Counted from the first letter of the stretch, positions 11,677 through 31,717 are shown. The stretch: 32,000 bases of DNA from Pandoraea communis (GCF_902459745.1 NZ_CABPSJ010000003.1:778957-810956); one strand, 5' to 3'. Program-made: numbers and translations. The notes: a model not told the origin generated them from the letters alone.

Positions 11677-13234
11677 CTTCGGCTCGCAAGTCACCCAGCT
11701 CATCGGCCGCCGCGTTCGCGAAGCGCACGTCTACTGCGAGATCCACCCGAACGACGTTTCGGACGAGTTCATTCGCGAATTCAATCCGAAGGCCGTCATT
11801 CTGTCGGGTAGCCACGCGAGCACATATGAGGATCAGGATCTGCGTGCCCCGCAGGCGGTGTGGGATCTGGGTGTGCCGGTGCTGGGCATTTGCTACGGCA
11901 TGTTCGCGATGACGGTCCAACTGGGCGGTCAGGTCGAGGCGAGCAACCATCGCGAGTTCGGTTACGCCGAGGTGCGTGCGCATGCGCATACGCCGCTGCT
12001 CGAGGGCCTTGAGGATTTCCGTACGACCGAAGGTCACGGCATGCTCAAGGTGTGGATGAGTCACGGTGACAAGGTCACGCAATTGCCGCCGGGCTTTGCG
12101 CTGATGGCGTCGACGCCGAGCTGCCCGATTGCCGGTATGGCCGACGTGGTGCGCAACTACTACGCAGTGCAGTTCCACCCGGAAGTCACGCATACGGTGA
12201 AGGGCCGCGAGTTGCTCGAGCGTTTCGTGCTGCAGATTGCCGGCGCGAAGCCGGACTGGATCATGCGCGACCACATCGAGGAAGCCGTCAAGGCGATTCG
12301 CGAGCAAGTGGGCGACGAAGAAGTGATTCTGGGGCTGTCGGGCGGTGTGGATTCGAGCGTTGCGGCGGCGCTGATTCATCGCGCTATTGGTGATCAACTG
12401 ACGTGTGTGTTTGTCGATCACGGTCTGCTGCGCCTGAATGAAGGCAAGATGGTGATGGAGATGTTCCAGGGGCGTCTGCACGCGAAGGTCGTGCATGTCG
12501 ACGCCGCTGAGCAGTTCATGGGCCATCTGACGGGGGTGACCGATCCGGAGCAGAAGCGCAAGATCATCGGCCGCGAATTTGTCGAAGTGTTCCAGGCCGA
12601 AGCGAAGAAGCTGAAGAACGCGAAGTGGCTGGCGCAGGGCACGATTTATCCGGACGTGATCGAGTCGGGTGGCGCGAAGACGAAGAAGGCGACGACGATC
12701 AAGAGCCACCATAACGTTGGTGGCCTGCCGGAGACGCTGGGGCTGAAGCTGCTTGAGCCGCTGCGCGACCTGTTCAAGGACGAAGTGCGCGAGCTGGGCG
12801 TGGCGCTGGGCCTGCCGCATGACATGGTCTATCGTCACCCGTTCCCGGGGCCGGGGCTGGGCGTACGGATTCTGGGTGAAGTGAAGCGCGACTACGCTGA
12901 CCTGCTGCGTCGCGCCGATGCCATCTTCATTGAAGAGTTGCGCAACACGGTCGAGCCGAACAGCGGTAAGACGTGGTACGAACTGACGAGCCAGGCGTTC
13001 GCGGTATTCCTGCCGGTCAAGAGCGTGGGTGTGATGGGCGATGGCCGCACGTATGAATGGGTCGTGGCACTGCGCGCCGTGCAGACGCAAGACTTCATGA
13101 CGGCGCACTGGGCACACTTGCCGCATGACCTGCTTGGCAAGGTCTCGAACCGCATCATCAACGAGGTTCGTGGTTTGAACCGCGTTGTTTATGACATCTC
13201 GGGCAAGCCACCGGCAACGATTGAGTGGGAGTGA
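11651..13234 (+). CDS. guaA: GMP synthase (glutamine-hydrolysing)
   Basis: The start at [13 protein letters not shown] gives 527 aa. It has a GATase domain (GICYG), an ATP-PPase loop (SGGVDSS) and the C-terminal IEWE. The longer ORF start at 11459 is rejected because its N-terminal extension is Arg/Pro-rich and non-homologous. Confidence 0.95.
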
Positions 13235-13452
13235 TCTAGCATCGTCTCACACCGTTTCAGGCAGTATCAAAAACTTCACGAAACCCAAGCGGGATAAGGA
13301 GTTAGTGGCTCAGGCAGTCTCAGCCGCTATCACCCGATCTCGCTCATTTTGACGGGCGTCGTGACGGTATCGTTGGAAGCGGTCGAAAACGCCGCTTCCG
13401 GTACCGACAGGGGGTCTGACGGTATCAAGCGGCAAATCAGAGTGAGGCTGAT

Positions 13453-14790
13453 TTGCTAACTGATCGTGAGTTGGGTGCCCTGACGCCCAAGGAAAAAATG
13501 TTCAAGGTGAGCGACCGCGACGGCTTGTACGTGGCGGTGCTCCCAACTGGTACCCGGGCCTTTCGGTACGACTACCGTCTCAACGGCCGGCGCGAGACCT
13601 TGGCGATCGGGCGCTACGACCCGGCATGCAAGGTGACCCGCGATCTCGATGCGCTTGAGTACGGGATGGGTATTTCACTGCGTGAGGCGCGCACGCTTCT
13701 GGACCGTGCTCGACGCGACGTGGAGCGCGGCGTGTCGCCATCGCGCGCCAAGGCTGAGAAGCGTGCCGCAGCGGCCGAGGCGCTGACGTTCGGCGGCTGG
13801 GCGCAGACCTACTTTAAGCACAAGGCGGACCCCAAGAGCGGGGCGGAGCAGTTAGCGGACAGCACGCTCGAGCTGCGGCAATCGACGTATCGGCGAGTAA
13901 TCGAGCCCGAACTGGGCCGCCTGAAGCTTGAGGAGGTGACGCCGCAGCGCCTGATGCGTCTGTGCCTTGACGCGAAGGAGAAGCGCGGCCCGGCTGTTGG
14001 CGTCCACGTTCGGGAAGTGGTGCACGCGGTGTTCCGCCACGCACAGGGCAGTGGCATTTCGATCCCGAACCCGGCGGACAGCGTCCGCGCCAGCGCAATC
14101 GCCACCTTCGAGCCGCGTGACCGCGCATTGTCTCCGGCCGAGATCCGAAAGTTCTTCACTGCTCTGGAGCAGGTTGCGGCCGCACCAACGCTGCGCCTGG
14201 CGCTGAAGTTCGTTCTGCTGACCGGTGTGCGCAAGAGCGAGTTCATCGACGCGACGTGGAGCGAGGTCGATTTCGACACGGAGCGCTGGACGATCCCCGG
14301 TTCGCGCATGAAGGCCGGCAAAGCCCATGTGGTCCCGTTGAGCGAACAGGCGCTGGACATTCTGACGGCGTTTCGTTCGTGCTTTGGAGCAAGCCAATAC
14401 TTGCATCCAGGGCGCTATGACCACGATTTGCCCATCAGCAACGCTACGCTGAATCGCATCATCGACGCTGCGGTCGAGCGCATCCAGAAAGACGATCCCG
14501 AGTTCCAGACTTTCGGCGTCCACGACTTGCGGCGAACGTTTTCTACCGGCCTGAACCGGGCGAAGTTCGATGAGCGGTGGGTTGAAATGTCGCTCGCTCA
14601 CGCGCCGCGAAACAGGATCGCAGCCGTGTACAACGTGAACCGCTACCTGTCGGAGCGGAAAATCATGCTGCAGTGCTGGGCGGACACGATCGACTGCTGG
14701 ATGCGCGGCGAGTCGGCACGCGAGCTGATCGCCGATGCCAAGCGGCGGGCCGCAGAGGTGCACGAGGATGATCTCGACGACGATCTGTAG
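13453..14790 (+). CDS. int: P4-type tyrosine integrase (N-terminal DUF4102-like arm-binding domain)
   Basis: The N-terminus LTDRELGAL..K..KVSDRDGLYVAVLPTGTRAFRYDYRLNGRR is the typical P4-integrase N-domain. The C-terminal catalytic residues sit in HDLRRTF and LAH...VY contexts. The TTG start is required to include the conserved LTD motif. Confidence 0.9.
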   Translation: MLTDRELGALTPKEKMFKVSDRDGLYVAVLPTGTRAFRYDYRLNGRRETLAIGRYDPACKVTRDLDALEYGMGISLREARTLLDRARRDVERGVSPSRAKAEKRAAAAEALTFGGWAQTYFKHKADPKSGAEQLADSTLELRQSTYRRVIEPELGRLKLEEVTPQRLMRLCLDAKEKRGPAVGVHVREVVHAVFRHAQGSGISIPNPADSVRASAIATFEPRDRALSPAEIRKFFTALEQVAAAPTLRLALKFVLLTGVRKSEFIDATWSEVDFDTERWTIPGSRMKAGKAHVVPLSEQALDILTAFRSCFGASQYLHPGRYDHDLPISNATLNRIIDAAVERIQKDDPEFQTFGVHDLRRTFSTGLNRAKFDERWVEMSLAHAPRNRIAAVYNVNRYLSERKIMLQCWADTIDCWMRGESARELIADAKRRAAEVHEDDLDDDL

Positions 14791-14831: not shown

Positions 14832-14987
14832 TGGCAGACTTCCTCAACTTGGTTGAATAAAATCTCTTTAAAAATCATTGGGTTACTCTAATCATTGCCT
14901 CGTGTCGTATCACGTAGTCTCGTCGTGACATTACCGTGTAGGCATTGGCTGGCGCACTGGCGCGGCCGCCACACGAGGACTAACGCA

Positions 14988-15197
14988 ATGAACCCGCCCA
15001 TTCGAATTCTGCGGCTGAAGGATGTTCAGCAACGAATCGGAATCTCCCGCCCAACTGTTTATCGGTGGCTGGACAAGGATCCGTCTTTCCCGAAGCCGGT
15101 CTCACTTGGTTCGCACTCGATTGGTTTTGTTGAGAGCGAGATCGACGCCTGGCTTGAGGCCCGCGTCCGGGCGTCCCGTGGAGAGGTGGCCGCATGA
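14988..15197 (+). CDS. alpA: AlpA-family (MerR-like HTH) phage/island transcriptional regulator
   Basis: MNPPIRILRLKDVQQRIGISRPTVYRWL...FPKPV.LG..S.GF.ESEIDAWL is the AlpA/Xis-like pattern. I chose the start at 14988 inside the longer ORF. Confidence 0.85.
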   Translation: MNPPIRILRLKDVQQRIGISRPTVYRWLDKDPSFPKPVSLGSHSIGFVESEIDAWLEARVRASRGEVAA

Positions 15198-15640: not shown

Positions 15641-15853
15641 CCGCACTCAACCAGCCGCGCCGCACATTGACGACTGTGGCGCCTGGCTACCGCAGCGATC
15701 AGCGCCAAACCCGTCGCAATGCCTGCCCAGGCCCGCAGTACTAAACCAAGGGCCAAAAAAATGCCGACACGCGCTTGTACCGGCATCAATGGCCCAAACA
15801 ATTCGAAGCTCATGAGTCTTCATTCTGGTATCACGACCGCCGAGACTGGCGGT

Positions 15854-18754
15854 ATGTCGCAAATTGGTGACGTCGAGCGTTACATCAGCGCCATGTTTGC
15901 ACTCGATCCGGGCATGGAACGCGAGTCGTGGGTGCGCGTGGCAATGGCGGCCAAGGCCAGCGGCATAGACCTTGAGCACTTCGACCGTTGGAGTTCAGCC
16001 GCAGACAACTACGACGCCAAGGATTGCGCGGCCACGTGGAGGTCAATCAGCGCAGATGGTCGCGTTGGCCCAGGAACGTTGATCCAGATGGCGCAGGAAG
16101 CTGGCTGGCGTTACGAAGGCCAGCGCGTTCAGCTAAGCGCAACCGAGATCGCCCGGCGCGATGCCGAGCGTGCCCAGCGTCGAGAACGCGAGGAGGGGCA
16201 GCGTGTCGCACAGCATGAAGCTGCGGCCGCGCATGCCACGAGCATCTGGAACGGCGCGAAGTCCGCCGCGAAGCCGACCGATGTCACACACGCATACCAG
16301 CGTGCCAAGGGCATTTGCTCGAACGGCGCGCGCACCGGCGACTGGCCGGTGATCGACCCGGACACAGGCGAGATCCGCTACACCGTCAAGAACGCGCTTC
16401 TCCTGCAGATCCGCGACTTCGATAAGCGCATCCACTCGGTACAAGCGATCATCGAGCGCACCGGCGAGAACGGGCGGACAGAGTTCACCAAACTCTTTCT
16501 CCCCGGCGGCGCCAAAAAGGGCCATTTCTTCCCAATTGGACAGCCGCGTCAGGGTGCTGATGGCCGCCGCACGTTCATTGTCGCCGAAGGGTTTGCGACC
16601 GCTGGGAGCGTTCATGAGGCGACCGGGCATGGCTGCGTCGTGGCGTTCGACGCGGGCAATCTCGCGCCGGTGTGTCGCGAGATCCGAGCACGGTTTCCGG
16701 GTGCGCACATCCTGATTGTCGGCGATCGCGATGCCGAGGATCACGCGCAGTCTACGGGCTCGCGCAAGGCTGCTGATGCGGCCCTCGAGGTCGGCGCATG
16801 CCTGTTCGTTCCCGAGTGGACAGGCGCTGGGCGCGATGCGAACGACATCTTTGTGCGCGGTTTTCAGCACGAGTGGGTCGATGCGGACGGCAATCACCAG
16901 ACGGTCAATATCGCCGGGCCAGACCATCTTCAAGCCTGCGTTGAGCTGGCGCTTGCGGCCGGGCCTCTGCAATCCGAACAGTTCAAGCAGACGATGGACG
17001 GTCTCGCGCGCGTATCCGCCTCACAGGCCGACGACGCGGGCAGCGCTGAGGATGCGGTGGGTGCTATCCAGCAGGCGAGTCGGGCTGACGACGTCGATCC
17101 CGAGGACGATACCGCACCCGGCGAGAACCCGTTCGCGAACAATCGGCATTTCCGCGTGCTTGGCGTCGACGGGGACGCGTACTTCTTTTTCCGGAAAGGC
17201 CGGAGAAACCAGATCCTGACCATCCGCACGAGCGGTCTCAGCAAGAACGCACTGATGTCTCTCGCGCCGCTCAACTGGTGGGAGGGGATCATGCAGGGAA
17301 ACTTCGACAAGGACGCCGCCGTTGGCTTCCTGATGGAGGCGGCCGAGGCGGCGGGCATCTATGACCCTACGTTCACGCGCGGGCGCGGAGCGTGGTGGGA
17401 CGGCGACCGAATGGTGGTGCACCTGGGCGATCGACTGTTGGTCGACGGTACATCCACAGAACTGGGCGCGATTCGCTCGGAGTTCCTCTATCAAGGCGGC
17501 CGCAAGATCGTGGCGCCTTCGGATACGCTGCTCAGCGCGGCCGATGGCACTTGGCTGCTCGAAATGGCGAACTCGTTTCGCTGGGCGAAGTCGGCATCGG
17601 CGCCGCTCCTATGCGGTTGGTTGCTGCTGAGCCCCTTGTGCGGTGCACTGCGTTGGCGTCCGCACGCGTGGATCACGGGCGGCGCCGGGTCTGGCAAGAC
17701 GACGATCCTGAATGAGTCTGTGCGCCCGCTGATCCCGGCGGGCATGGACGTGTTTGCCAACGGCGACAGCACGGAGGCGGGCCTCCGCCAGACCCTGCGC
17801 AGCGACGCGAGGCCGATCCTGATCGACGAGAGCGAGTCCGACACGGAAGCGGCGGCGACCAAGATGCAGCGCATTCTCGTCATGATCCGCCAGTCGTCGA
17901 GCGACACCGGCGCGCAAACCTATCGAGGCACCGTCGGCGGTGAGGCGCAGGCATTCCAAGTGCGTTCGATGGCGCTGCTTTCCAGCATCGGCGTCGCGCT
18001 CGACCGACAGCAGGACCTTGAGCGCGTCACCGTGCTCGCGCTGCGGCCGAAGCGGGAAGGCGAGGCGACCGACGTGAAGAACTGGCCGGCCATCCGCGCC
18101 GGGCTCAACAAAATTGCGAGGGACAAGACGCTGAGCGCGCGGCTGTTCCGCCGTTCGATCGACATGGCGCCCGTGATTATGGAGTCGATCGACGTGTTCA
18201 CGGAGGCGGCAGCCACGTTCTTCGGAACTGCGCGCGAGGGCGACCAGATCGGCGCGCTCCTGGCCGGCGCGTGGTGCCTCGTCAACGATCGATTGCCGAC
18301 ACCGGACGAGGCGTTGGCGGAGATTAAGCGGCACGACTGGCACGATTACCAGGAAGGCAAGGCCGAGGAGCAGGACGATCTGATTGCGACGCTCATGGGG
18401 CGCCCGATCACTCGGCAAGGTGGGGTTCGGACCTCGGTTGGTAAGTTGGTCGCATGCGCGGCAGGATATGCGGTCGAGGAACTGGGCATCCTGCCGACCG
18501 TAGCCGACAGCGAGCTGCACAACTTCGGCATGAAAGTGAAGGATGGTTTTGTTTGGTTCCATCCGAAGAACGCGGAGCTCCTCAAGCTGATGCGGGAAAC
18601 GAAGTTCTCGTCAGACCTTCGAGGGCGGCTGAAGCGAATTCAGGGCGCCAGCACCAAAGACGGCATCCGCATCGGTGAGGCTGCTACCAGCGGGATCCTG
18701 ATCCCATTGAGCGCCGCGCTGAGCCATCGGGATAGCGACGACCAGACGTTCTAG
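15854..18754 (+). CDS. Island replication protein: PriCT-2-like + Toprim primase + P-loop (helicase-type) NTPase
   Basis: PriCT-like segment (WVRVAMAAKASGIDLEHFDRWS, about 15866-16094). Toprim segment (FIVAEGFATA ... LIVGDRDAED, about 16571-16829). Walker A GGAGSGKTT (17678-17704) and Walker B ILIDESE. The start is uncertain, with alternatives at 15719 and 15812. Confidence 0.8.
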   Translation: MSQIGDVERYISAMFALDPGMERESWVRVAMAAKASGIDLEHFDRWSSAADNYDAKDCAATWRSISADGRVGPGTLIQMAQEAGWRYEGQRVQLSATEIARRDAERAQRREREEGQRVAQHEAAAAHATSIWNGAKSAAKPTDVTHAYQRAKGICSNGARTGDWPVIDPDTGEIRYTVKNALLLQIRDFDKRIHSVQAIIERTGENGRTEFTKLFLPGGAKKGHFFPIGQPRQGADGRRTFIVAEGFATAGSVHEATGHGCVVAFDAGNLAPVCREIRARFPGAHILIVGDRDAEDHAQSTGSRKAADAALEVGACLFVPEWTGAGRDANDIFVRGFQHEWVDADGNHQTVNIAGPDHLQACVELALAAGPLQSEQFKQTMDGLARVSASQADDAGSAEDAVGAIQQASRADDVDPEDDTAPGENPFANNRHFRVLGVDGDAYFFFRKGRRNQILTIRTSGLSKNALMSLAPLNWWEGIMQGNFDKDAAVGFLMEAAEAAGIYDPTFTRGRGAWWDGDRMVVHLGDRLLVDGTSTELGAIRSEFLYQGGRKIVAPSDTLLSAADGTWLLEMANSFRWAKSASAPLLCGWLLLSPLCGALRWRPHAWITGGAGSGKTTILNESVRPLIPAGMDVFANGDSTEAGLRQTLRSDARPILIDESESDTEAAATKMQRILVMIRQSSSDTGAQTYRGTVGGEAQAFQVRSMALLSSIGVALDRQQDLERVTVLALRPKREGEATDVKNWPAIRAGLNKIARDKTLSARLFRRSIDMAPVIMESIDVFTEAAATFFGTAREGDQIGALLAGAWCLVNDRLPTPDEALAEIKRHDWHDYQEGKAEEQDDLIATLMGRPITRQGGVRTSVGKLVACAAGYAVEELGILPTVADSELHNFGMKVKDGFVWFHPKNAELLKLMRETKFSSDLRGRLKRIQGASTKDGIRIGEAATSGILIPLSAALSHRDSDDQTF

Positions 18755-18758
18755 CCGG

Positions 18759-21700
18759 TTAGCCGTCGGCTGTGGCGTCCGGGTCTGGTTGCATTATCGG
18801 CCAAGGCTTGCCTGACGGCAGGTCGGGGTGACGCGGCTCGCCTTCCGGCATTCCGTGTTCATCCCGAATCTCGTCGATCTGACGCAGCCGGCGCGCAGCG
18901 GCGTCAGTGGGACCACCGTCCGTGGTCAGTGCAAGCAGCTTTTGGCGCAAGCTATCGGCAGGGACCGGAACAACGTTGTATGCGCCTGCCCAATCGCTGA
19001 CGGGCTCATGCTCAGTAACAAGCCGTTCAATGGTTTGCCAGCTAGCAAAGGGCCGATTTAGCTCTTGTTCGAATTTTACGAGTAACAGCAAACCGTCGTT
19101 GTCGGGAGCTTCTGCGACCGCGCGGGTCAGCAGTGCCAGCCCGGGAGTGGTCGGGCCGGCATTCAAGAGGCCGTACAAATGGGAGCGTAGGTCCGGGTGC
19201 GCTTCGATCTGGCTGCCGAGTTCCCGCGCTAGGTGCCAGTCGTTCCCCACTCGCTCGAAAGCCCCGGCGGCGGTCAGGTCAATGATACGACGCGCTGAAG
19301 ATGGTGTGCCGAGCCTCAAAACTGCCGCGCGCCACCGCTCGTTCAAGTAAAAACGCGGGTCTTCCTCGGCGAGCTTGAACAAGACCTGTTCGGCTTCGTC
19401 CGATGGAGCATTGGCAAGAACCCCGACCATTTCCTCCAAGAAGCGAGGCTCGCGCTGCGTGGGCGGCATGCCGCGCACGACAGCTAGCGCCCCGGTTGGA
19501 TGGCTTACGAACGGCAGAAGGCGCAGCCACAACTTCAATTCGTAGCCATCGCTCTGCGTCAATATCCATGGTTCGGTCTTCGCCGCCTCGAGCGTCTCGG
19601 AGATTCCGTCGGAAACAACCTTGATGTCGATCTCCTCGCCCGAAAGAACGAGGTTCAGAAGCAGAGTGGGACGCGCGCGCCTCGGTGCGAGGGCAATGAG
19701 CTTCTGGATCGTGCTGTCGCGCTGGCCGTGCGGAAGCCGTACAGCGGCAATGCCAAGCGCGACCGCGAGTGCTTTCTGTTCGTTTGTCGCGCCATCCGCA
19801 GTTAGGGGTTCGACCGCGGCGAAGATTGCTTCGGCTTCCGCAGAAGTTGCTTGAGGATCGACGGCACGCGCCCCGCGCTTCTCCTCTACGCCCGAGAAGT
19901 CCACTCCGAACATAACGCGCTTATCTTTCGGCGGCTCGTTTGCGGCGCGCCATTGGTCGGCGAGCACCTGCGCGGCGAGTTCGCCGAAGTGCTGGTCCGC
20001 CAGATATTCCTGCATCATGGCGGCGGTCTCTGGCGTTTTGATTGCCGAGAAGGCCCGCTGGTACTCGTGCGTCATGGGCTGGCGAGCTTCGTTCAAGGCG
20101 TCGCCTTGCCGCCAACCGGCAGCCTCCGCCTGCTCGCGGTAAGCGCGGAAGCGCCGCAGATTGTCGTCCAGTAGCCGTTTCAAGATAGGCAGCAGGTCCA
20201 CGGACGGAGCGTGGCTCGCAAGCGTGCCGATGCTGGCCTTTTGCCAGCGCTCCGCGTCGTCCGAGGCAAGCATCCGGTTGCCCCAGTCTTCGACGAGGCC
20301 CCGTATGGACGCCAGCGCGGCAGCGTCGAACGGTCTGCCGCGTTCGGTTTCGCCATCGGGATGTCGCGAGAGAAGTTCGGCCAAGCGCGTCATCTGCTCG
20401 TTGTCCGCCTGCGCCGACCGCGCTAGTACGGCGGCAACGAGACTCGTGCCGGGCACGTGCGCGATGCGGTTTTGTAGCCCAACGTAAAGCTCACTGGCGG
20501 CTTGGTCGAACTTGCCATCAGCGCGCACGCGCGCTCCTGTGTCGAGCAATGCGTCAACCATGCGGCCCACGGCGATCGGCCCGAGTACCGACGCGGCGGC
20601 CTCTGCACGGGCATCGTGGCGGCCAGGGTCGGAAAGCGCCAGATCGACTAGTGCGTCGTCTTCCAGAGCGAATCCAGCAGACGCTAGAAGGTCATCGGCG
20701 CCGTAGAACAACGGATGGCCCGCACGTACGCGCACCAGCAGGCCGTCCGCGATCGCGCCCAAATAGCGGTTGCGCGCCTCATAGATCAATTGCACCCCCG
20801 CATCCTGGGGCTGGTCGATCTCCATCGTGCTGACAATATCTCTCAACTCGGCGCTTCGGTCCTCGCGGCCTTGCGCGTCCACGATCCCGCGCAGGCGATC
20901 ATGAGCTGATGTGCCATTCGCCGCCTGCCGCTCGCGCGTCGCCGCGACGCCTTTTCTTACTGGCTCATCGTCAACTTCATCGATGAGGTCTCTGCGGACA
21001 ACCAGGTCGAAGGTCTTGTCGCTCGCGTTGTGCAGTACTTCTGCTACGTGGCGGTCCGCCCGCCGAAACGAGAGCGCGTCGACGACGGATGCCTGTACTT
21101 CAGGATCGGGATCGTTCTTCGCAATGGCGCTCGCGAGATCGAGGCCATCCATCCCGCTGCGCGAGGCCATTTCGCTGAGCAGCACGGTCCGGAGGTGCGG
21201 CGACAAAGCCTTGATCTTGTTCTCGGCGTCGTTTCCCAGGATCGAGGGTCTAAAACGCCTGCAATTGCGCAACGCCTTGAGGCTGATCTGATCATCTTGA
21301 TTGGTGATCAGCGGCCAAACTGCATCGAGGAATTCTGAGCGACCAGACGTGAGCATGAAGCGAACGGCGCGATCGACTGTTCCGGGTGCGTGCCAGCGCG
21401 CCACGAGTCCTTTAATGGTCTTGGCGATCTGCGACCACACTTCTTCCGTGGAGCGGAAGATCATCTCGGCGGCCAGGATCGGATCGACCTCAAATGCGGC
21501 GACGATCGCCTTGCCGCACGCGGCCCGCTGGTCCGCATCGCCGCGCGCCAGACGCTCGACTGCAAAGAGGATGGGTTCCTCCCATGCCGGGAGATTGAAG
21601 ACTTCTGCCTTCAATGTCTCGCGCCCGCTGGGATCGTCGACTTCGGCGATGATCCGGCGCTCGACCGAATGAGACGCGTACCATTCCTGAAACTGCTGGT

Positions 21701-23192
21701 GCTGAAATGAATATCCCGGTGTATCGCCGGCGCGCATTAGCATGTGGTTGCCGACAAGCACATTGAGTACAGCGTCGGGCTGCGGCTTGATCGTGATCTG
21801 TCCGTCCTCGGCCAGCATGTTCTCCGTCTCAGAGATCGATCGCCGTGCGTGTCTGTCGGCGATGGTGCTCGCCGTTCGGGTGGCGAAGACGGCGAGACCG
21901 TCGAGGTACTCCTGCTGAAATCCTCGCGCGACGGCGTAAAGGGCTTCCGCGTGGCTAGCCTCCTCCTCATGCGCGGCCACGAAGTGCCGTAGCACTTCCT
22001 CCTTGGTCGTCGGGAATGGCGCGTTATCCGGAAGCGAGAGCAGGGCGGTCAGATAGAGCGGGATTGTCACGAGCTCACGCACGCCGGCCGTGCGCCATGC
22101 CTGGTCGACGAACTTCGCGCCCCCGTCGCCGCGCATCGAAACGGCGATCTGCATTTGCTGCGCTTCGCTGAGGGGCAGAAGATCGACGCGCGTCCCGCCG
22201 AAAGGAACGTCGAGCGCTTGCCGGCGGGTCGAGACGATCAGGCCGAGTTCGGGCAATTGCGCCTTGAGGGCCGTGATCTGCACCCGCGCGCGATTCCGCG
22301 CTTGCGCGTCCAGTTCGTTCCATCCATCGAGAAGCAGCACAACGCCGGGCTGCGCGGCGGCCTTTCGATAGTCGTCTTCCGAGATCCCACGGAACGCTGG
22401 GCGCTTGAGAATCGAGTCCAGAATCGTCGCGTCTTCTGTGGCCCAATCGCCGAGCGGAACGACGAGCGGCGTCCCTTTGCCGTTCGCCAGAACGCCTTCG
22501 GCGATCTGGAAGAGCGTAGTGGTCTTTCCCATGCCGGGCGGTGCGACAAGAATCAGATCGTCCAGCGACGTGGCCGCACCTGCAAGCGCGCTTGTCGTCA
22601 CAGGCTCGTCGAAGTCGGCAACCTTCAACGTGAGCGGGACCGACGTGGACGGCCATTTCGCGGTTTGCCTGAAAACTCGCAGATCGGCTTCTGCGGCGGC
22701 GCGTACGCGCTCAGCCAATTGCGGGTCGGCGACATCTGCGTGCCCGGGCAATGCTTCGTGCCGCAGCACACGCCGCCACGACTCGTTTTCCGCTTGCCTC
22801 TTCCATTGGTGCAGCAGCGCCACGGTGAATTGCGGATCGGGGGAGTCGATCGCCTTGCCGTGATCGCGGCACATCCAGATGCCGTTCTTTGCGGAGGAGC
22901 GCTCCTCTCGCGACATCGTCGCGTCGTAACGCGGGCCGCCAGGAGCGGCCGCGCAGATGTGGGCCGCCGTCCCGATGTTGATCTCGCCTTCGCCGTCAGA
23001 CGTTGCTCCAACCGTGTCCGCGCGACATGTCGGAAACGAGCAACGCCAGCCCGCGCGTTTCGCGATCTGCAGCACCGTATCCTTATTGAAGTCGTCTCGA
23101 TTTCTCTTTGCCACCTGACGGACACTCGATTTCGGCTTACGGTTCGGAGCGAACGAGCCGAGTACATAGTCTGGCCGCCTCCCGCTGCGCAA
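18759..23192 (-). CDS. HNH nuclease + NACHT/STAND NTPase + helical-repeat (HEAT/TPR-like) protein; candidate antiviral STAND (Avs/bNACHT-like)
   Basis: 1477-aa ORF. The N-terminal HNH pattern is C51-x4-C56 ... AAH78IC ... N103GIWMC108RDH111. Walker A is APPGMGK223TT and Walker B is VVLLLD289GWNE293LD (NACHT-style). About 1100 aa of alpha-helical repeats follow. The start is a TTG at 23192 (alternative GTG at codon 27), so the 5' end is uncertain. Confidence 0.8.
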   Translation of the reverse strand: MRSGRRPDYVLGSFAPNRKPKSSVRQVAKRNRDDFNKDTVLQIAKRAGWRCSFPTCRADTVGATSDGEGEINIGTAAHICAAAPGGPRYDATMSREERSSAKNGIWMCRDHGKAIDSPDPQFTVALLHQWKRQAENESWRRVLRHEALPGHADVADPQLAERVRAAAEADLRVFRQTAKWPSTSVPLTLKVADFDEPVTTSALAGAATSLDDLILVAPPGMGKTTTLFQIAEGVLANGKGTPLVVPLGDWATEDATILDSILKRPAFRGISEDDYRKAAAQPGVVLLLDGWNELDAQARNRARVQITALKAQLPELGLIVSTRRQALDVPFGGTRVDLLPLSEAQQMQIAVSMRGDGGAKFVDQAWRTAGVRELVTIPLYLTALLSLPDNAPFPTTKEEVLRHFVAAHEEEASHAEALYAVARGFQQEYLDGLAVFATRTASTIADRHARRSISETENMLAEDGQITIKPQPDAVLNVLVGNHMLMRAGDTPGYSFQHQQFQEWYASHSVERRIIAEVDDPSGRETLKAEVFNLPAWEEPILFAVERLARGDADQRAACGKAIVAAFEVDPILAAEMIFRSTEEVWSQIAKTIKGLVARWHAPGTVDRAVRFMLTSGRSEFLDAVWPLITNQDDQISLKALRNCRRFRPSILGNDAENKIKALSPHLRTVLLSEMASRSGMDGLDLASAIAKNDPDPEVQASVVDALSFRRADRHVAEVLHNASDKTFDLVVRRDLIDEVDDEPVRKGVAATRERQAANGTSAHDRLRGIVDAQGREDRSAELRDIVSTMEIDQPQDAGVQLIYEARNRYLGAIADGLLVRVRAGHPLFYGADDLLASAGFALEDDALVDLALSDPGRHDARAEAAASVLGPIAVGRMVDALLDTGARVRADGKFDQAASELYVGLQNRIAHVPGTSLVAAVLARSAQADNEQMTRLAELLSRHPDGETERGRPFDAAALASIRGLVEDWGNRMLASDDAERWQKASIGTLASHAPSVDLLPILKRLLDDNLRRFRAYREQAEAAGWRQGDALNEARQPMTHEYQRAFSAIKTPETAAMMQEYLADQHFGELAAQVLADQWRAANEPPKDKRVMFGVDFSGVEEKRGARAVDPQATSAEAEAIFAAVEPLTADGATNEQKALAVALGIAAVRLPHGQRDSTIQKLIALAPRRARPTLLLNLVLSGEEIDIKVVSDGISETLEAAKTEPWILTQSDGYELKLWLRLLPFVSHPTGALAVVRGMPPTQREPRFLEEMVGVLANAPSDEAEQVLFKLAEEDPRFYLNERWRAAVLRLGTPSSARRIIDLTAAGAFERVGNDWHLARELGSQIEAHPDLRSHLYGLLNAGPTTPGLALLTRAVAEAPDNDGLLLLVKFEQELNRPFASWQTIERLVTEHEPVSDWAGAYNVVPVPADSLRQKLLALTTDGGPTDAAARRLRQIDEIRDEHGMPEGEPRHPDLPSGKPWPIMQPDPDATADG

Positions 23193-23221: not shown

Positions 23222-23487
23222 GGGATGTTGTTGGGAATTCTCGAATCCCAACACAAACCCAACGCTCTAAATACCTGATTTATAAGAAATGTTGGGGATG
23301 TTGGGATGTTGGGATTTTTAACAACAACAAAATTATAAAGTGAAGGAAGCCACCCCGAACTCACACAAGGGTCCGGAGCGGGGATCTCCTTTCATATATC
23401 TATCTCAATCCCAACAATCCCAACAACCCAACAACCTAAGCCAGACAAGGGTATGCGGGTGTTGGGAATGTTGGGATGTTGGGAATT
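23222..23487. repeat. Iteron-like field of 8-bp (A)TGTTGGG(A) repeats in five clusters of alternating orientation
   Basis: Cluster A 23222-23238 (+). Cluster B 23244-23263 (-); A and B together form an imperfect palindrome, gttgggaattc/gaatcccaac. Cluster C 23289-23316 (+, 3 tandem units). Cluster D 23407-23436 (-, 3 or more units). Cluster E 23457-23487 (+, 3 units). Clusters C and D flank a 90-bp spacer with AT-rich ends. Confidence 0.85.
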
Positions 23488-23642: not shown

Positions 23643-24353
23643 TCAAAATGCGCTACGAGGGATCGTCGCGGGGTCTAAGAAACGGCCCTTGTCGATCCAC
23701 CTGCAGTCGCCACTGACCCTGCCGGTTCTACGGCCCTGCTCGCGAAGGCACGTGATGATGACGCTGTTCGGCTTGTATCGGCCCGAATTGTCGAAATTCC
23801 AGCACGCTTCCATATCGGTCGGTGCCGACTGGAGCAGTAAGGAGGCGCGAGCGATTGCCCGATATCCATCGTCGGGCTTCCCCGGCACGCAAAGTTCATT
23901 GGTGAGGGTGATCGGGAAGATGTGTGCGTTACCCGGGAAGATCCCGATGACCTTGATGGGAGTTGTCTGCGGAAGAGAGTCTGATGACCGGGAAATTGGC
24001 TTGCGCGAGAACGCGAGACATTCGTCCCGCCGCAAGAAGAACCGAAAGACGCTCTCGGCGCCGTCTTCGTGTCGACCCGTGATTGTAACTAGGCGCCCAT
24101 CCTGGCTTATGGTTTCCGTTTGCTCGACACGTTCACGGTTTCCCCAGAGGTTAGCTGGCACCCCGGAATTGATCGGCGCGCATCTCTCCATGCTTGGCCC
24201 AACAACGTAGACGGTATTACTAAAAAATGCGTCCTTGGGATTGAGGTGAGGACGGTCATTGCCTTCGCCGCTCGCATGCACGCTGCTAGCTATCAAAAAA
24301 CCAATAAAGGTCAGGTAGATGCGGCTCTTTCGATGGTCTGCTTTTTCGTACAT
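23643..24353 (-). CDS. Hypothetical secreted protein (signal peptide)
   Basis: 236-aa ORF. The N-terminus has basic residues, a hydrophobic core (IYLTFIGFLIASSV) and HA-SG, typical of a Sec signal peptide. No family recognised. Confidence 0.55.
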   Translation of the reverse strand: MYEKADHRKSRIYLTFIGFLIASSVHASGEGNDRPHLNPKDAFFSNTVYVVGPSMERCAPINSGVPANLWGNRERVEQTETISQDGRLVTITGRHEDGAESVFRFFLRRDECLAFSRKPISRSSDSLPQTTPIKVIGIFPGNAHIFPITLTNELCVPGKPDDGYRAIARASLLLQSAPTDMEACWNFDNSGRYKPNSVIITCLREQGRRTGRVSGDCRWIDKGRFLDPATIPRSAF

Positions 24354-30680: not shown

Positions 30681-31081
30681 GAGCTTAGAACCTCTGTTGT
30701 TTCAGGAGAATACAACTGCTGCAGTTCATTTTAATCGGTCGGCGCACCAAAACATGCAATGTCTGCTCCGGGGCGCGTTCAAACGGTCGCAACCGTCGCA
30801 AACTGGCCAGTTTTGGTCGTTCGACATGGACGGCCGGATCGTCGACAATCGCTACCTGACTTTCGTATTTCGCGTGTAATCATAGGCCAGGAGTGCTTAC
30901 GATCCCGGCAACAGTCCAAAAATCTCACGGACGCAGCCGGCAAGATGGTGTCCGGTATCAACGACGTCCGAGACGTGCTCCTGGCTACCTTTGGCCGTCG
31001 TGGCATGCGTGCCGCGGCCGATTGCACAAGGCTGTCATCGAGGGGCAGCGGCAGGACATTACCGACCTCTATAACGCGCGT

Positions 31082-31717
31082 ATGAAAATGGCCCAGGCCT
31101 CGGCGTCGATGTCTGTGGGCGAATGCGGTCGCACGGTGCCCGTGCAAGAGACCACAATGAAAGCGGCTCAGTCCGAGATGGCTGTTGCGAAGGCGGGGCG
31201 CGACAAAGCACTGTGGGAGCTTGAGGCCGGCGATACACCTGTCAGCAGCACGCAGGGGACAAATACCCTCCCGCTGCCGGGTTCCTTTAAGGGCAGCGGC
31301 AGCGGCAGCGAGACACCGGGTACCGCTACGTGTCGCGCAACAAATCCGGGAAATATCCGCTACAGTGGTTTCGCTCGTAGTGCTGGCGCTATCGGCCAGG
31401 ACAGTAGCGGCTTTGCGGTGTTCCCGGACGCTGCTATCGACACCGAGGCCATGCAGGCTTTGCTCCGGTCCTATAATGGGTGCGGTCTCAATACCGTCGG
31501 CGGCGTGGTCGAGCGCTGGGCTCCGCCGAGTGAGAACGGTACCAGTAGCTGCGCAAAATCGGTCGCCAAGCGTCTCGGGGTTCGCGCCGACGGCACAGTG
31601 CATAGCCGAGCGATTGATCTGACGGTGGATACGGAGGAGGTGCTTGTCGCGGTGCTGCGCGACGAGCAGCAGGCGGTAAGGTTCGGCTTTTTGCGGTCGG
31701 GCTCCAGCGATCGATAG
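31082..31717 (+). CDS. Hypothetical protein with a phage-associated NPGNIR...WAPPSEN-type C-terminal domain
   Basis: The C-terminal segment NPGNIRYSGF...GFAVFPD...AMQALLRSY...VVERWAPPSENGT resembles, from memory, a conserved domain seen in many phage and prophage proteins. The N-terminus is uncertain: the ORF is open from 30893 and a frameshift with the 30759 frame is possible. Confidence 0.4.
   Translation: MKMAQASASMSVGECGRTVPVQETTMKAAQSEMAVAKAGRDKALWELEAGDTPVSSTQGTNTLPLPGSFKGSGSGSETPGTATCRATNPGNIRYSGFARSAGAIGQDSSGFAVFPDAAIDTEAMQALLRSYNGCGLNTVGGVVERWAPPSENGTSSCAKSVAKRLGVRADGTVHSRAIDLTVDTEEVLVAVLRDEQQAVRFGFLRSGSSDR

What the first reader, a model, noticed from the sequence alone, without database searches (positions are those of the whole stretch)
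23222..23487. Dense field of 8-bp (A)TGTTGGG(A) repeats in alternating-orientation clusters around an AT-rich core; a possible island replication origin or regulator landing pad
About 12 copies of the GTTGGG core occur within 265 bp of non-coding DNA:
- Clusters A (+) and B (-) form an imperfect palindrome (gttgggaattc-tc-gaatcccaac).
- Cluster C has three tandem + units (atgttggggatgttgggatgttggg).
- A 90-bp spacer follows, with AT-rich ends (ttttaacaacaacaaaattataaag ... tttcatatatctatctc).
- Cluster D has three or more tandem - units (aatcccaacaatcccaacaacccaac).
- Cluster E has three more + units.

Short iterons in two sets flanking an AT-rich melting region is the documented architecture of SaPI/PICI replication origins, which are recognised by the island's own primase-helicase. 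This island encodes such a protein (15854-18754).

Alternatives are arm-type or recombination-directionality sites, a centromere-like site, or a multi-site operator controlling the STAND gene, whose start at 23192 lies immediately downstream on the minus strand.
Basis: partly seen in the sequence, partly recalled or inferred. Interest (0 to 1): 0.66.

Follow-up and report, generated by a model that had tools for sequence, protein, structure and literature searches.

The report
Iteron replication origin of defence island
The dense TGTTGGGA repeat field is very probably the replication origin that the island's own primase-helicase recognises with its last ~100 amino acids, which is a familiar design (phage satellites, P4) seen here in a new protein family.

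Summary
Eleven exact TGTTGGG (twelve GTTGGG) lie in 255 bp, against 0.018 expected at the genome's own rate. It is the only such cluster in the 5.7-Mb genome. Three triplets with identical 9/8-bp spacing sit in opposite orientations around a 94-bp spacer with AT-rich ends.

The origin reading is supported by comparison, not by experiment.
- Close relatives of the 1011-aa primase-helicase were found in Burkholderia, Ralstonia, Cupriavidus, Bradyrhizobium and one unnamed sequencing-run contig. All carry a field of the same architecture 3' of that gene.
- The repeat word differs between them: TGTTGGGA, TGTGGGA, TGTGAGA or TGTGAAC.
- The word tracks only the protein's last ~100 residues. It does not track the primase domain, the helicase core, AlpA, the integrase or the downstream genes.
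- The helicase, C-terminal domain and field are exchanged as one cassette. Its right edge coincides with the end of the field.
- Here a 4.4-kb NACHT defence gene sits between the gene and its origin.
- The helicase half folds as a D5/SaPI-PriRep-type SF3 helicase.

This is a new member of a known kind (SaPI/PICI and P4-like self-loading initiator plus iteron origin). The scan has reported the same kind of feature on other DNA many times. Binding and replication are untested.

The parts
15719..18754 (+). Primase-helicase (Pri-Rep type initiator). The longest ORF is 1011 aa. The database protein P0001 starts at 15854 and is 966 aa. Residue numbers in this report use the 1011-aa ORF.
   Evidence: Pfam PriCT_2 and Toprim_3. 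phrog_35358 'DNA primase', E 1e-191. The primase domain is homologous to P4 alpha (hhalign probability 99.1%, E 1e-18).
17150..18445 (+). SF3 (D5-like) helicase core, residues 478-909
   Evidence: Model m65a75803e25d has pLDDT 86. Foldseek gives E 8e-07 to 3e-05 against NrS-1 CTR, poxvirus D5/E5, ASFV PrimPol, SaPI5 primase-helicase 7ola and PriRep1 7pds. No Pfam family reaches its cut-off. The core is 86-99% identical among all close relatives whatever their iteron.
18446..18751 (+). C-terminal domain, residues 910-1011: the inferred origin-binding (specificity) domain
   Evidence: It is the only segment whose similarity follows the iteron word: 84-100% within a word and 62-82% between words. 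Model mf04fa81ba38b has pLDDT 85.7, with helix-helix-beta-hairpin elements. The best structural matches are weak and are winged-helix DNA binders, including the SaPIbov1 Rep C-terminus (Z 4.6-5.0).
18759..23192 (-). NACHT/NCAB2 STAND gene: cargo inserted between the initiator gene and its origin
   Evidence: Pfam NCAB2 (E 1e-28) and NACHT. Relatives have other cargo, or none, at this position.
23229..23264 (.). Iteron cluster A/B: TGTTGGGA (+) at 23229-23236, its inverse at 23246-23253, and a degenerate inverse copy at 23257-23264
   Evidence: Equivalent pairs occur in L154, L152, L145, L143 and L157.
23290..23314 (+). Iteron cluster C: three tandem units starting at 23290, 23299 and 23307
23315..23408 (.). 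Spacer with two AT-rich stretches (about 23314-23340 and 23390-23408) around a GC-normal centre: the inferred unwinding region
   Evidence: AT profile. Relatives have the same arrangement.
23409..23433 (-). Iteron cluster D: three tandem inverted units, with TGTTGGG matches at 23410, 23419 and 23427
   Evidence: A related copy in metagenome run X1 carries one extra 9-bp unit here.
23460..23484 (+). Iteron cluster E: three tandem units starting at 23460, 23469 and 23477. This is the right end of the exchanged cassette.
   Evidence: DNA homology to L152 and L154 stops at 23485 and 23487.
23365..23372 (+). Second short conserved word, ACAAGGGT. A second copy is at 23445-23452, between clusters D and E. 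Role unknown.
   Evidence: Direct repeat D4. Related words (acaagggtt, aacccttgt) lie at the equivalent places in L145, L142, L154 and L152.
13223..13236 (+). Left copy of the 14-bp direct repeat GAGTGGGAGTGATC at the guaA stop: the inferred attL. The right copy lies outside the window, at window-equivalent 35859-35872.
   Evidence: Core genes resume after the right copy.

Best explanation
The field is the replication origin of a 22.6-kb island integrated at guaA.

Proposed mechanism. After excision (P4-type integrase plus AlpA), the island's primase-helicase binds the TGTTGGGA iterons through its last ~100 residues. Oppositely oriented iteron triplets on either side of the spacer position the protein on both sides of the AT-rich stretches. 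The DNA melts there, and the SF3 helicase rings load themselves. The fused Toprim primase, homologous to that of P4 alpha, makes the first primers.

What is shown:
- The repeat architecture.
- Its conservation 3' of the gene in relatives.
- The exclusive covariation of the iteron word with the C-terminal domain.
- The SF3 fold.
- The homology of the primase domain to P4 alpha.

What is inferred: binding, melting, self-loading, and that the origin still fires in this island.
For: 1. Extreme, genome-unique enrichment and ordered geometry.

2. Nine independent close relatives have a field of about 260 bp with the same order of elements (pair, triplet, AT-rich, spacer, AT-rich, inverted triplet, triplet). 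It lies either 23-48 bp after the stop codon or after inserted cargo. The relatives include B. pseudomallei, B. multivorans, Ralstonia, Cupriavidus and Bradyrhizobium, plus chimeric proteins with other primase domains.

3. The repeat word differs between relatives: TGTTGGGA, TGTGGGA, TGTGAGA or TGTGAAC. Identity matrices give the following.
- C-terminal 910-1011: 84-100% for the same word and 62-82% for different words. The relation is graded: words one base apart go with 79-82%.
- Helicase core: 86-99% among the eight close relatives regardless of word. The Cupriavidus protein is 43-45% to all of them.
- Primase domain: groups quite differently. The window is 94% identical to Cupriavidus (TGTGAAC) but only 19-37% to its own iteron group.

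4. AlpA, the ORF after AlpA and the integrase do not follow the word. The downstream 236-aa / XRE / 238-aa block is 81% DNA-identical to Cupriavidus, which has a different word.

5. The cassette has clear boundaries. DNA homology to L152 and L154 runs from the primase/helicase linker (17066-17087) to 23485-23487, the last iteron. Ralstonia and Bradyrhizobium share the C-terminal domain (95%) and the word despite different cargo in between.

6. At least 15 more distant relatives (32-48% identity) have fields within 300 bp of the stop codon. Most of their words start with TGT. A field scored in 19 of 81 loci downstream against 7 of 75 upstream, and the upstream hits were mostly palindromic genome-wide words.

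7. The helicase half is SF3/D5-like, matching SaPI5 PriRep and PriRep1. The published SaPI and Gram-negative PICI origins have 6-12 iterons 3' of rep, a central AT-rich region, and at least two iterons on each side in opposite directions (PMC9371898; PMC6092414).

8. In phage P4, crr has 10 octamers in 300 bp and lies directly 3' of alpha.
Against: - No experiment exists: binding, melting and replication are all inferred.
- The C-terminal coding region and the field are physically linked. Part of the covariation could therefore be simple co-inheritance of one recombination block.
- In this island the field is 4,475 bp from the gene, not adjacent to it.
- The winged-helix assignment of the C-terminal domain rests on weak structural matches (Z of 5 or less, below the tool's stated noise level). 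Foldseek found nothing.
- There is no similarity to the P4 alpha origin-binding region (hhalign probability 0.15%).
- Contig depth in the one run that holds a related island gives no sign of amplification.
- The island has lost the virion-like genes of its larger relatives, so it may no longer be induced.
- Large virulent phages with a homologous protein show no such field.
Confidence: 0.8

Rival explanations
1. It is an origin by descent but is now inactive. The island is a decayed derivative of a prophage-like element. The field is either a relic, or is retained only as a binding site through which the primase-helicase regulates neighbouring genes.
For: - Larger relatives carry a resolvase, DUF5681 and 914-955-aa virion-type lysin proteins. 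The window keeps only short remnants of these.
- In B. multivorans L142 an IS has split the homologous field, so loss of function does occur in this family.
- No depth excess is seen in run X1.
Against: - Eleven of twelve units are exact and the geometry is intact.
- The 1011-aa ORF is uninterrupted.
- L154 and L152 keep the field at about 85% DNA identity, with the iterons better conserved than the spacer.
Confidence: 0.1
2. It is an operator or promoter region, not an origin. The repeats would be a multi-site landing pad through which a regulator controls the divergent NACHT gene and/or the 236-aa gene.
For: - The longest NACHT ORF starts 37 bp from the first iteron. Its promoter must therefore lie inside the field.
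- In four relatives a minus-strand cargo gene starts next to the field.
Against: - Relatives with no cargo gene, or with plus-strand cargo, keep the same field.
- XRE, AlpA and the downstream genes do not follow the iteron word.
- The sigma-70 scan finds nothing inside 23229-23484.
- This layout is the origin layout in tested systems.
Confidence: 0.06
3. It is a partition (centromere-like) or DNA-packaging recognition site of the element.
For: Short repeats in both orientations are also typical of parS/parC-type and some pac sites.
Against: - No ParA/ParB-type or terminase gene was recognised in the island.
- The word follows the C-terminus of the replication protein.
- The field always sits 3' of that gene.
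Confidence: 0.03
4. The repeats are arm-type integrase sites or sites for the recombination-directionality factor (AlpA).
For: The island has a P4-type integrase with an arm-binding domain, and an AlpA protein.
Against: - The field is about 10 kb from the left att repeat and about 12 kb from the right one.
- The integrase is 95% identical between the window and Ralstonia, and AlpA is 83% identical, although their words differ.
Confidence: 0.01

Closest known systems
SaPI / PICI replication modules (Rep or fused Pri-Rep self-loading SF3 helicase plus iteron ori; e.g. SaPI5 PriRep5, SaPI1 Rep1, EcCICFT073 pri-rep-ori)
   Same: - A fused primase and SF3 helicase initiator with a small C-terminal domain.
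- 6-12 short iterons 3' of the gene.
- A central AT-rich region with oppositely oriented iteron sets on each side.
- The initiator and the iterons match each other.
- An island layout of int, alpA, pri-rep and ori, all transcribed in one direction.
   Different: - There is no sequence-level relationship of the helicase or C-terminal half to any Pfam family or PDB entry.
- The family is absent from 5,426 complete E. coli genomes, except for one plasmid primase domain.
- The iterons are 8-mers rather than 5-6-mers.
- A 4.4-kb defence gene separates the gene and the origin here.
- No capsid-redirecting or small-terminase genes were recognised, and no helper phage is known.
Satellite phage P4: alpha protein with ori and crr
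   Same: - The Toprim primase domain is homologous to that of alpha (hhalign 99.1%).
- The integrase is P4-type.
- The iterons are octamers beginning TGTT (P4 type-1 repeats; and my own knowledge of their sequence).
- P4 crr, with 10 octamers in both orientations in 300 bp, lies directly 3' of alpha.
   Different: - P4 needs two loci (ori and crr) 4.5 kb apart. Here there is a single cluster in the whole genome.
- The C-terminal domain shows no similarity to the alpha C-terminus.
- crr is built of two 120-bp direct repeats, not of mirrored triplets around an AT-rich spacer.
Iteron origins beside primase-helicase genes reported earlier in this scan (e.g. e1-2418763, e1-3159109, e1-1156129)
   Same: They give the same reading from the same kind of evidence: a field 3' of the gene, and a repeat word that changes with the protein.
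   Different: They concern other protein families and hosts (Bacteroidales, Prevotella, phages). I did not re-test them.

Membership tests
SaPI/PICI-type Rep-iteron origin | The initiator is a self-loading SF3 helicase, optionally fused to a primase | tested here: met
   Foldseek on the helicase-half model gives E 8e-07 to 3e-05 against NrS-1, D5/E5, SaPI5 primase-helicase 7ola and PriRep1 7pds. PriCT_2 and Toprim lie at the N-terminus.
SaPI/PICI-type Rep-iteron origin | A C-terminal winged-helix domain reads the iterons | tested here: inconclusive
   The model is good (pLDDT 85.7). Foldseek finds nothing. The best VIA matches are winged-helix proteins, including the SaPIbov1 Rep C-terminus, but at Z 4.6-5.0, below the tool's noise level.
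SaPI/PICI-type Rep-iteron origin | Six to twelve short iterons lying 3' of the rep gene as part of the same module | tested here: met
   There are twelve units. In relatives they lie 23-48 bp after the stop codon. Here they are 4,475 bp away, because a NACHT gene sits inside the same contiguous homology block.
SaPI/PICI-type Rep-iteron origin | A central AT-rich region with at least two iterons on each side pointing in opposite directions | tested here: met
   Triplet C (+) and triplet D (-) flank the 94-bp spacer, whose ends are 80-85% AT.
SaPI/PICI-type Rep-iteron origin | Cognate specificity between Rep and its own iterons | tested here: met
   This is comparative evidence only. The iteron word follows residues 910-1011 and no other segment or protein.
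SaPI/PICI-type Rep-iteron origin | Rep binds the ori, and the ori fragment supports Rep-dependent replication | not testable with these tools
   This needs EMSA or footprinting and a plasmid replication assay.
Phage-inducible chromosomal island (PICI) as an element | Helper-phage induction, interference genes, and packaging into phage particles | not testable with these tools
   No capsid-morphogenesis or terS-like gene was recognised. Larger relatives carry virion-type proteins and may be prophages.
P4 ori/crr system | Alpha-type Toprim primase | tested here: met
   hhalign of A1 against P4 alpha: probability 99.1%, E 1e-18, residues 154-381 against 110-314.
P4 ori/crr system | A bipartite origin: two separate iteron loci (ori and crr) | tested here: not met
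   There is only one TGTTGGG cluster in the 5.7-Mb genome and in the island.
P4 ori/crr system | An origin-binding domain homologous to the alpha C-terminus | tested here: not met
   hhalign of A2 against the last 134 aa of alpha gives probability 0.15%. No P4 entry is among the best 50 VIA matches.

The most novel reading that the evidence does not exclude
The helicase, C-terminal domain and ori segment may be a swappable specificity cassette. The slot between the initiator gene and its origin would then be a dedicated landing place for defence cargo (NACHT here, an AAA_13 protein in Bradyrhizobium, a rhomboid pair in Ralstonia). The promoter of minus-strand cargo would lie inside the origin. 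Occupancy of the iterons by the primase-helicase would then couple expression of the defence gene to island induction and replication.
Probability: 0.15. Interest if true: 0.55.

Novelty: new member of a known kind. Interest (0 to 1): 0.3.

Why it matters
It assigns a function to a striking non-coding feature. It also identifies the replicon of a family of guaA-integrated islands that carry anti-phage cargo in Pandoraea, Burkholderia (including B. pseudomallei), Ralstonia, Cupriavidus and Bradyrhizobium.

The natural chimeras amount to a domain-swap experiment. They place origin specificity in the last ~100 residues of a primase-helicase half that has no curated family. They also give four matched pairs of protein domain and 7-8-bp word, which are ready for binding studies.

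Otherwise the design is the familiar one of SaPI/PICI and P4-like elements. The scan has met it many times on other DNA.

Tried and rejected
- **Single-sequence locus search.** The search for related loci with the single protein found nothing. The alignment query worked.
- **Order-wide sample.** A sample of 400 genomes gave only N-terminal primase matches and singleton motif pairs, which are chance hits. One unpublished genome, G294, appeared there only as a singleton.
- **RNA explanations.** Rfam and tRNA scans of the window found nothing.
- **Second att copy.** No att repeat lies inside the window. The right copy was found beyond the window's end.
- **Solved structures by sequence.** PDB sequence searches with the protein and with the C-terminal profile gave nothing meaningful.
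- **C-terminal fold.** Foldseek on the C-terminal model gave nothing.
- **P4 alpha C-terminus.** No similarity.
- **E. coli.** A search of complete E. coli genomes, meant to link the family to the tested EcCICFT073 replicon, found no homologue.
- **Read depth.** The only run holding a related island is a metagenome at about 5x. It gives no information on replication.
- **Promoters.** The promoter/terminator scan found nothing convincing within the field.
- **Rejected readings.** Arm-type sites, AlpA sites, an XRE operator and a NACHT-specific operator were all rejected on the comparative evidence.

Full report
**1. The observation**

The window has 13 exact TGTTGGG, and 11 of them lie between 23229 and 23483. 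Shuffles of the whole window give a mean of 2.8 and at most 8. The 6-mer GTTGGG occurs 12 times in the same 255 bp, 7 on the plus strand and 5 on the minus strand. In the whole 5.7-Mb genome the 7-mer occurs 406 times, so 0.018 copies are expected in 255 bp. No other place has three copies within 300 bp, and the tandem form occurs nowhere else.

- A palindromic pair at 23229-23236 (+) and 23246-23253 (-), plus a degenerate copy at 23257-23264.
- A triplet on the + strand at 23290-23314.
- A 94-bp spacer whose two ends are 80-85% AT and whose centre is 25-40% AT.
- An inverted triplet at 23409-23433.
- A third triplet on the + strand at 23460-23484.

In plus-strand coordinates, units start 9 then 8 bp apart in all three triplets. 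No Rfam family or tRNA is present.

**2. The surroundings**

guaA ends at 13234. It is followed by these genes:
- A P4-type integrase (13453-14790).
- AlpA (14895-15197).
- A 148-aa ORF.
- A 1011-aa PriCT_2-Toprim-P-loop protein (15719-18754; the database version starts at 15854).
- A 1477-aa NACHT/NCAB2 gene on the minus strand (18759-23192).
- The repeat field.
- A 236-aa ORF on the minus strand, an XRE gene and small ORFs.

A 14-bp direct repeat, GAGTGGGAGTGATC, lies at the guaA stop (13223). It recurs 3.9 kb beyond the window end, at window-equivalent 35859, and core genes resume after it. The island is therefore about 22.6 kb, and the field lies in its middle, about 10 and 12 kb from the ends.

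**3. Relatives**

Full-length or half-length homologues of the 1011-aa protein exist in Burkholderia multivorans, B. pseudomallei, Ralstonia, Cupriavidus, Bradyrhizobium and many metagenomes. Their contigs show the same module, int-alpA-small ORFs-primase-helicase, often at guaA.

A k-mer scan of these loci found one dense field of about 260 bp in each. It starts 23-48 bp after the stop codon, or lies behind inserted cargo. The order of elements matches the window: pair, triplet, AT-rich, spacer, AT-rich, inverted triplet, triplet. The repeat word differs between loci:

| Word | Loci |
|---|---|
| TGTTGGGA | window, L152/153, L154 |
| TGTGGGA | Ralstonia L143, Bradyrhizobium L157 |
| TGTGAGA | B. 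pseudomallei L145, B. multivorans L142 and L155 |
| TGTGAAC | Cupriavidus L149 |

**4. Which protein goes with the word**

The proteins are natural chimeras.

| Segment | Pattern of identity |
|---|---|
| Primase domain (189-420) | The window is 94% identical to Cupriavidus and 84-86% to Ralstonia, B. multivorans P0003 and B. pseudomallei. It is only 19% and 37% identical to the two proteins that share its iteron. |
| Helicase core (478-909) | 86-99% among all eight close relatives whatever their word. |
| Last ~100 residues (910-1011) | Sorts with the word: 84-91% within TGTTGGGA, 95% within TGTGGGA, 90-100% within TGTGAGA, 62-82% between words. |

The relation in the last segment is graded. 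Words one base apart (TGTGGGA and TGTGAGA) go with 76-82%.

Other proteins do not follow the word. AlpA is 83% identical between the window and Ralstonia but 45-51% within the window's own iteron group. The ORF after AlpA is 67% identical to Cupriavidus. The integrase is 95% identical to Ralstonia. The 236-aa / XRE / 238-aa block after the field is 81% DNA-identical to Cupriavidus, which has a different word.

**5. A cassette**

DNA homology between the window and L152 or L154 is one contiguous block of about 6.4 kb. It runs from 17066-17087, the linker between primase and helicase (about residue 457), to 23485-23487, the last iteron. Against Cupriavidus the picture is the inverse: homology stops at 17059 and resumes at 23967. 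So the helicase, C-terminal domain, any cargo and the field are exchanged as one unit between conserved flanks.

Ralstonia and Bradyrhizobium share the C-terminal domain and the word, yet have different cargo in between: a rhomboid protein plus a 276-aa ORF in one, and an AAA_13 protein in the other. This weakens the objection that the covariation is only physical linkage, but it does not remove it.

**6. Wider family**

Eighty more distant loci (32-48% identity) were fetched. At least 15 of them have a field within 300 bp of the stop codon, with words such as TGTGAGG, TGTTCCC, TGTAACG, TGTTACG, TGTAGCC, TGTCACG and TGTTACC. Most begin with TGT.

With a strict threshold (a 7-mer at least six times in 320 bp), 19 of 81 loci score in the 3 kb downstream. 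In the 3 kb upstream, 7 of 75 score, and those are mostly palindromic words common in cyanobacterial genomes. The cyanobacterial members and two large virulent phages (PHB04, Touem01) show no clear field. Serratia phage MQ-4 has a weak one 1.7 kb downstream.

**7. The protein**

- *Primase domain.* It is homologous to that of P4 alpha (hhalign probability 99.1%, E 1e-18).
- *Helicase half.* It has no Pfam family above cut-off and no PDB relative by sequence. Its model (pLDDT 86) matches D5-type SF3 helicases, namely NrS-1, poxvirus D5/E5, ASFV PrimPol, the SaPI5 primase-helicase and PriRep1, at E 8e-07 to 3e-05.
- *C-terminal domain.* Modelled alone it has pLDDT 85.7 and ends in helix, helix and a beta hairpin. 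Foldseek finds nothing. The exhaustive aligner's best matches are a winged-helix oriT-binding protein (5vfx, Z 5.0), the C-terminal part of SaPIbov1 Rep (8tch_B 449-556, Z 4.6) and other winged-helix proteins. These Z values are below the tool's stated noise level, so the fold assignment is only suggestive. There is no similarity to the C-terminus of P4 alpha.

In the alignment the helix DLRGRLKRI is constant across iteron groups. The loop before the hairpin and the hairpin tip differ between groups. One inference from this is that the constant helix reads the shared TGT and the hairpin reads the variable bases. This is untested.

**8. Comparison with what is known**

For SaPIs, PMC9371898 describes SF3 Rep or fused PriRep proteins that act as self-loading helicases. 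Their C-terminal winged-helix domain recognises penta- or hexanucleotide iterons. Six to twelve iterons lie immediately downstream of rep, with a central AT-rich region and at least two iterons on each side pointing in opposite directions.

PMC6092414 reports the same origin organisation 3' of pri-rep in Gram-negative PICIs, and tested it for EcCICFT073.

In P4, crr has ten octamers in both orientations in 300 bp and lies directly 3' of alpha. P4 also needs a second locus, ori, 4.5 kb away. The window has a single cluster.

The feature therefore works like a SaPI/PICI origin and shares its primase ancestry with P4. The helicase and C-terminal half belongs to a family without curated description, one that is not found in complete E. 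coli genomes.

**9. Rivals**

- *NACHT-specific operator.* Excluded as the primary role, because relatives without that gene keep the field. The NACHT promoter must nevertheless lie inside the field, since only 37 bp separate the longest ORF's start from the first iteron. A secondary regulatory coupling is therefore possible but untested.
- *Integrase arm sites, AlpA sites and an XRE operator.* These do not fit the covariation data.
- *Partition or packaging sites.* There is no candidate protein for either.
- *A relic origin.* This cannot be excluded. The island has lost the virion-type genes of its larger relatives, and in B. multivorans L142 an IS has split the homologous field. Against this, the exact iterons and the intact 1011-aa ORF argue for function.

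**10. Verdict**

Binding and replication have not been shown. The feature is a new member of a known kind. The scan's notebook already holds many follow-ups with the same reading on other DNA, so it is ordinary in kind. Its useful extras are four matched domain-and-word pairs and a defence gene lodged between the initiator gene and the origin.

Noticed in passing
L142:13290-14620 (B. multivorans, CP090714.1): An IS (rve-family transposase gene at 13322-14520) is inserted in the AT-rich core of the homologous TGTGAGA field. It separates the left iteron clusters (about 13109-13196) from the right ones (14631-14707), so this origin is probably disrupted.
   Followed up: partly
window 23405: A related island copy in metagenome run X1 (about 5x depth) carries an extra 9-bp unit, CAATCCCAA, in cluster D. 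This makes four inverted iterons instead of three, so copy number varies by whole units.
   Followed up: no
window 13223-13236, and L159:4859-4872 (window-equivalent 35859-35872): A 14-bp direct repeat, GAGTGGGAGTGATC, lies at the guaA stop and again 22.6 kb downstream. These are probably attL and attR of the island, and HxlR/SDR core genes follow the right copy.
   Followed up: partly
window 30925-31263 and 31583-31686: Short stretches are 78-91% identical to the region of Cupriavidus locus L149 that holds a 914-aa virion-type lysin gene (phrog_669) and the genes after it. They are remnants suggesting that the island is a deleted derivative of a larger prophage-like element that also carries a resolvase and DUF5681.
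   Followed up: partly
window 23365-23372 and 23445-23452: A second short word, ACAAGGGT, occurs twice in the field. Relatives have it, or its inverted pair aacccttgt...acaagggtt, at the equivalent positions between iteron clusters. Its role is unknown; it may be a site for a host factor.
   Followed up: no
L159:751-4538 (window-equivalent 31751-35538): The right end of the island carries a 944-aa helicase IV/UvrD-like protein with a Top1-type zinc ribbon, next to a DUF2971 protein. This may be a further defence-type pair.
   Followed up: no
window 17036-18751: The helicase and C-terminal half of the initiator (572 aa) has no Pfam or NCBIfam family above cut-off, although it occurs fused to at least five different primase types (PriCT_2/Toprim_3, Zn_ribbon_DnaG, Prim_Zn_Ribbon, Prim-Pol PF09250, VapE).
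   Followed up: partly
L079:3631-3922: In an uncultured Bordetella contig the densest field (CCTGACA, nine copies) lies upstream of the primase-helicase gene rather than downstream.
   Followed up: no
L157:13161-15455, L143:13034-14538, L152:13200-17555: The slot between the initiator gene and the origin holds different cargo in different hosts: an AAA_13 ATPase, a rhomboid protein plus a 276-aa ORF, or a NACHT protein. It may be a cargo hotspot.
   Followed up: partly
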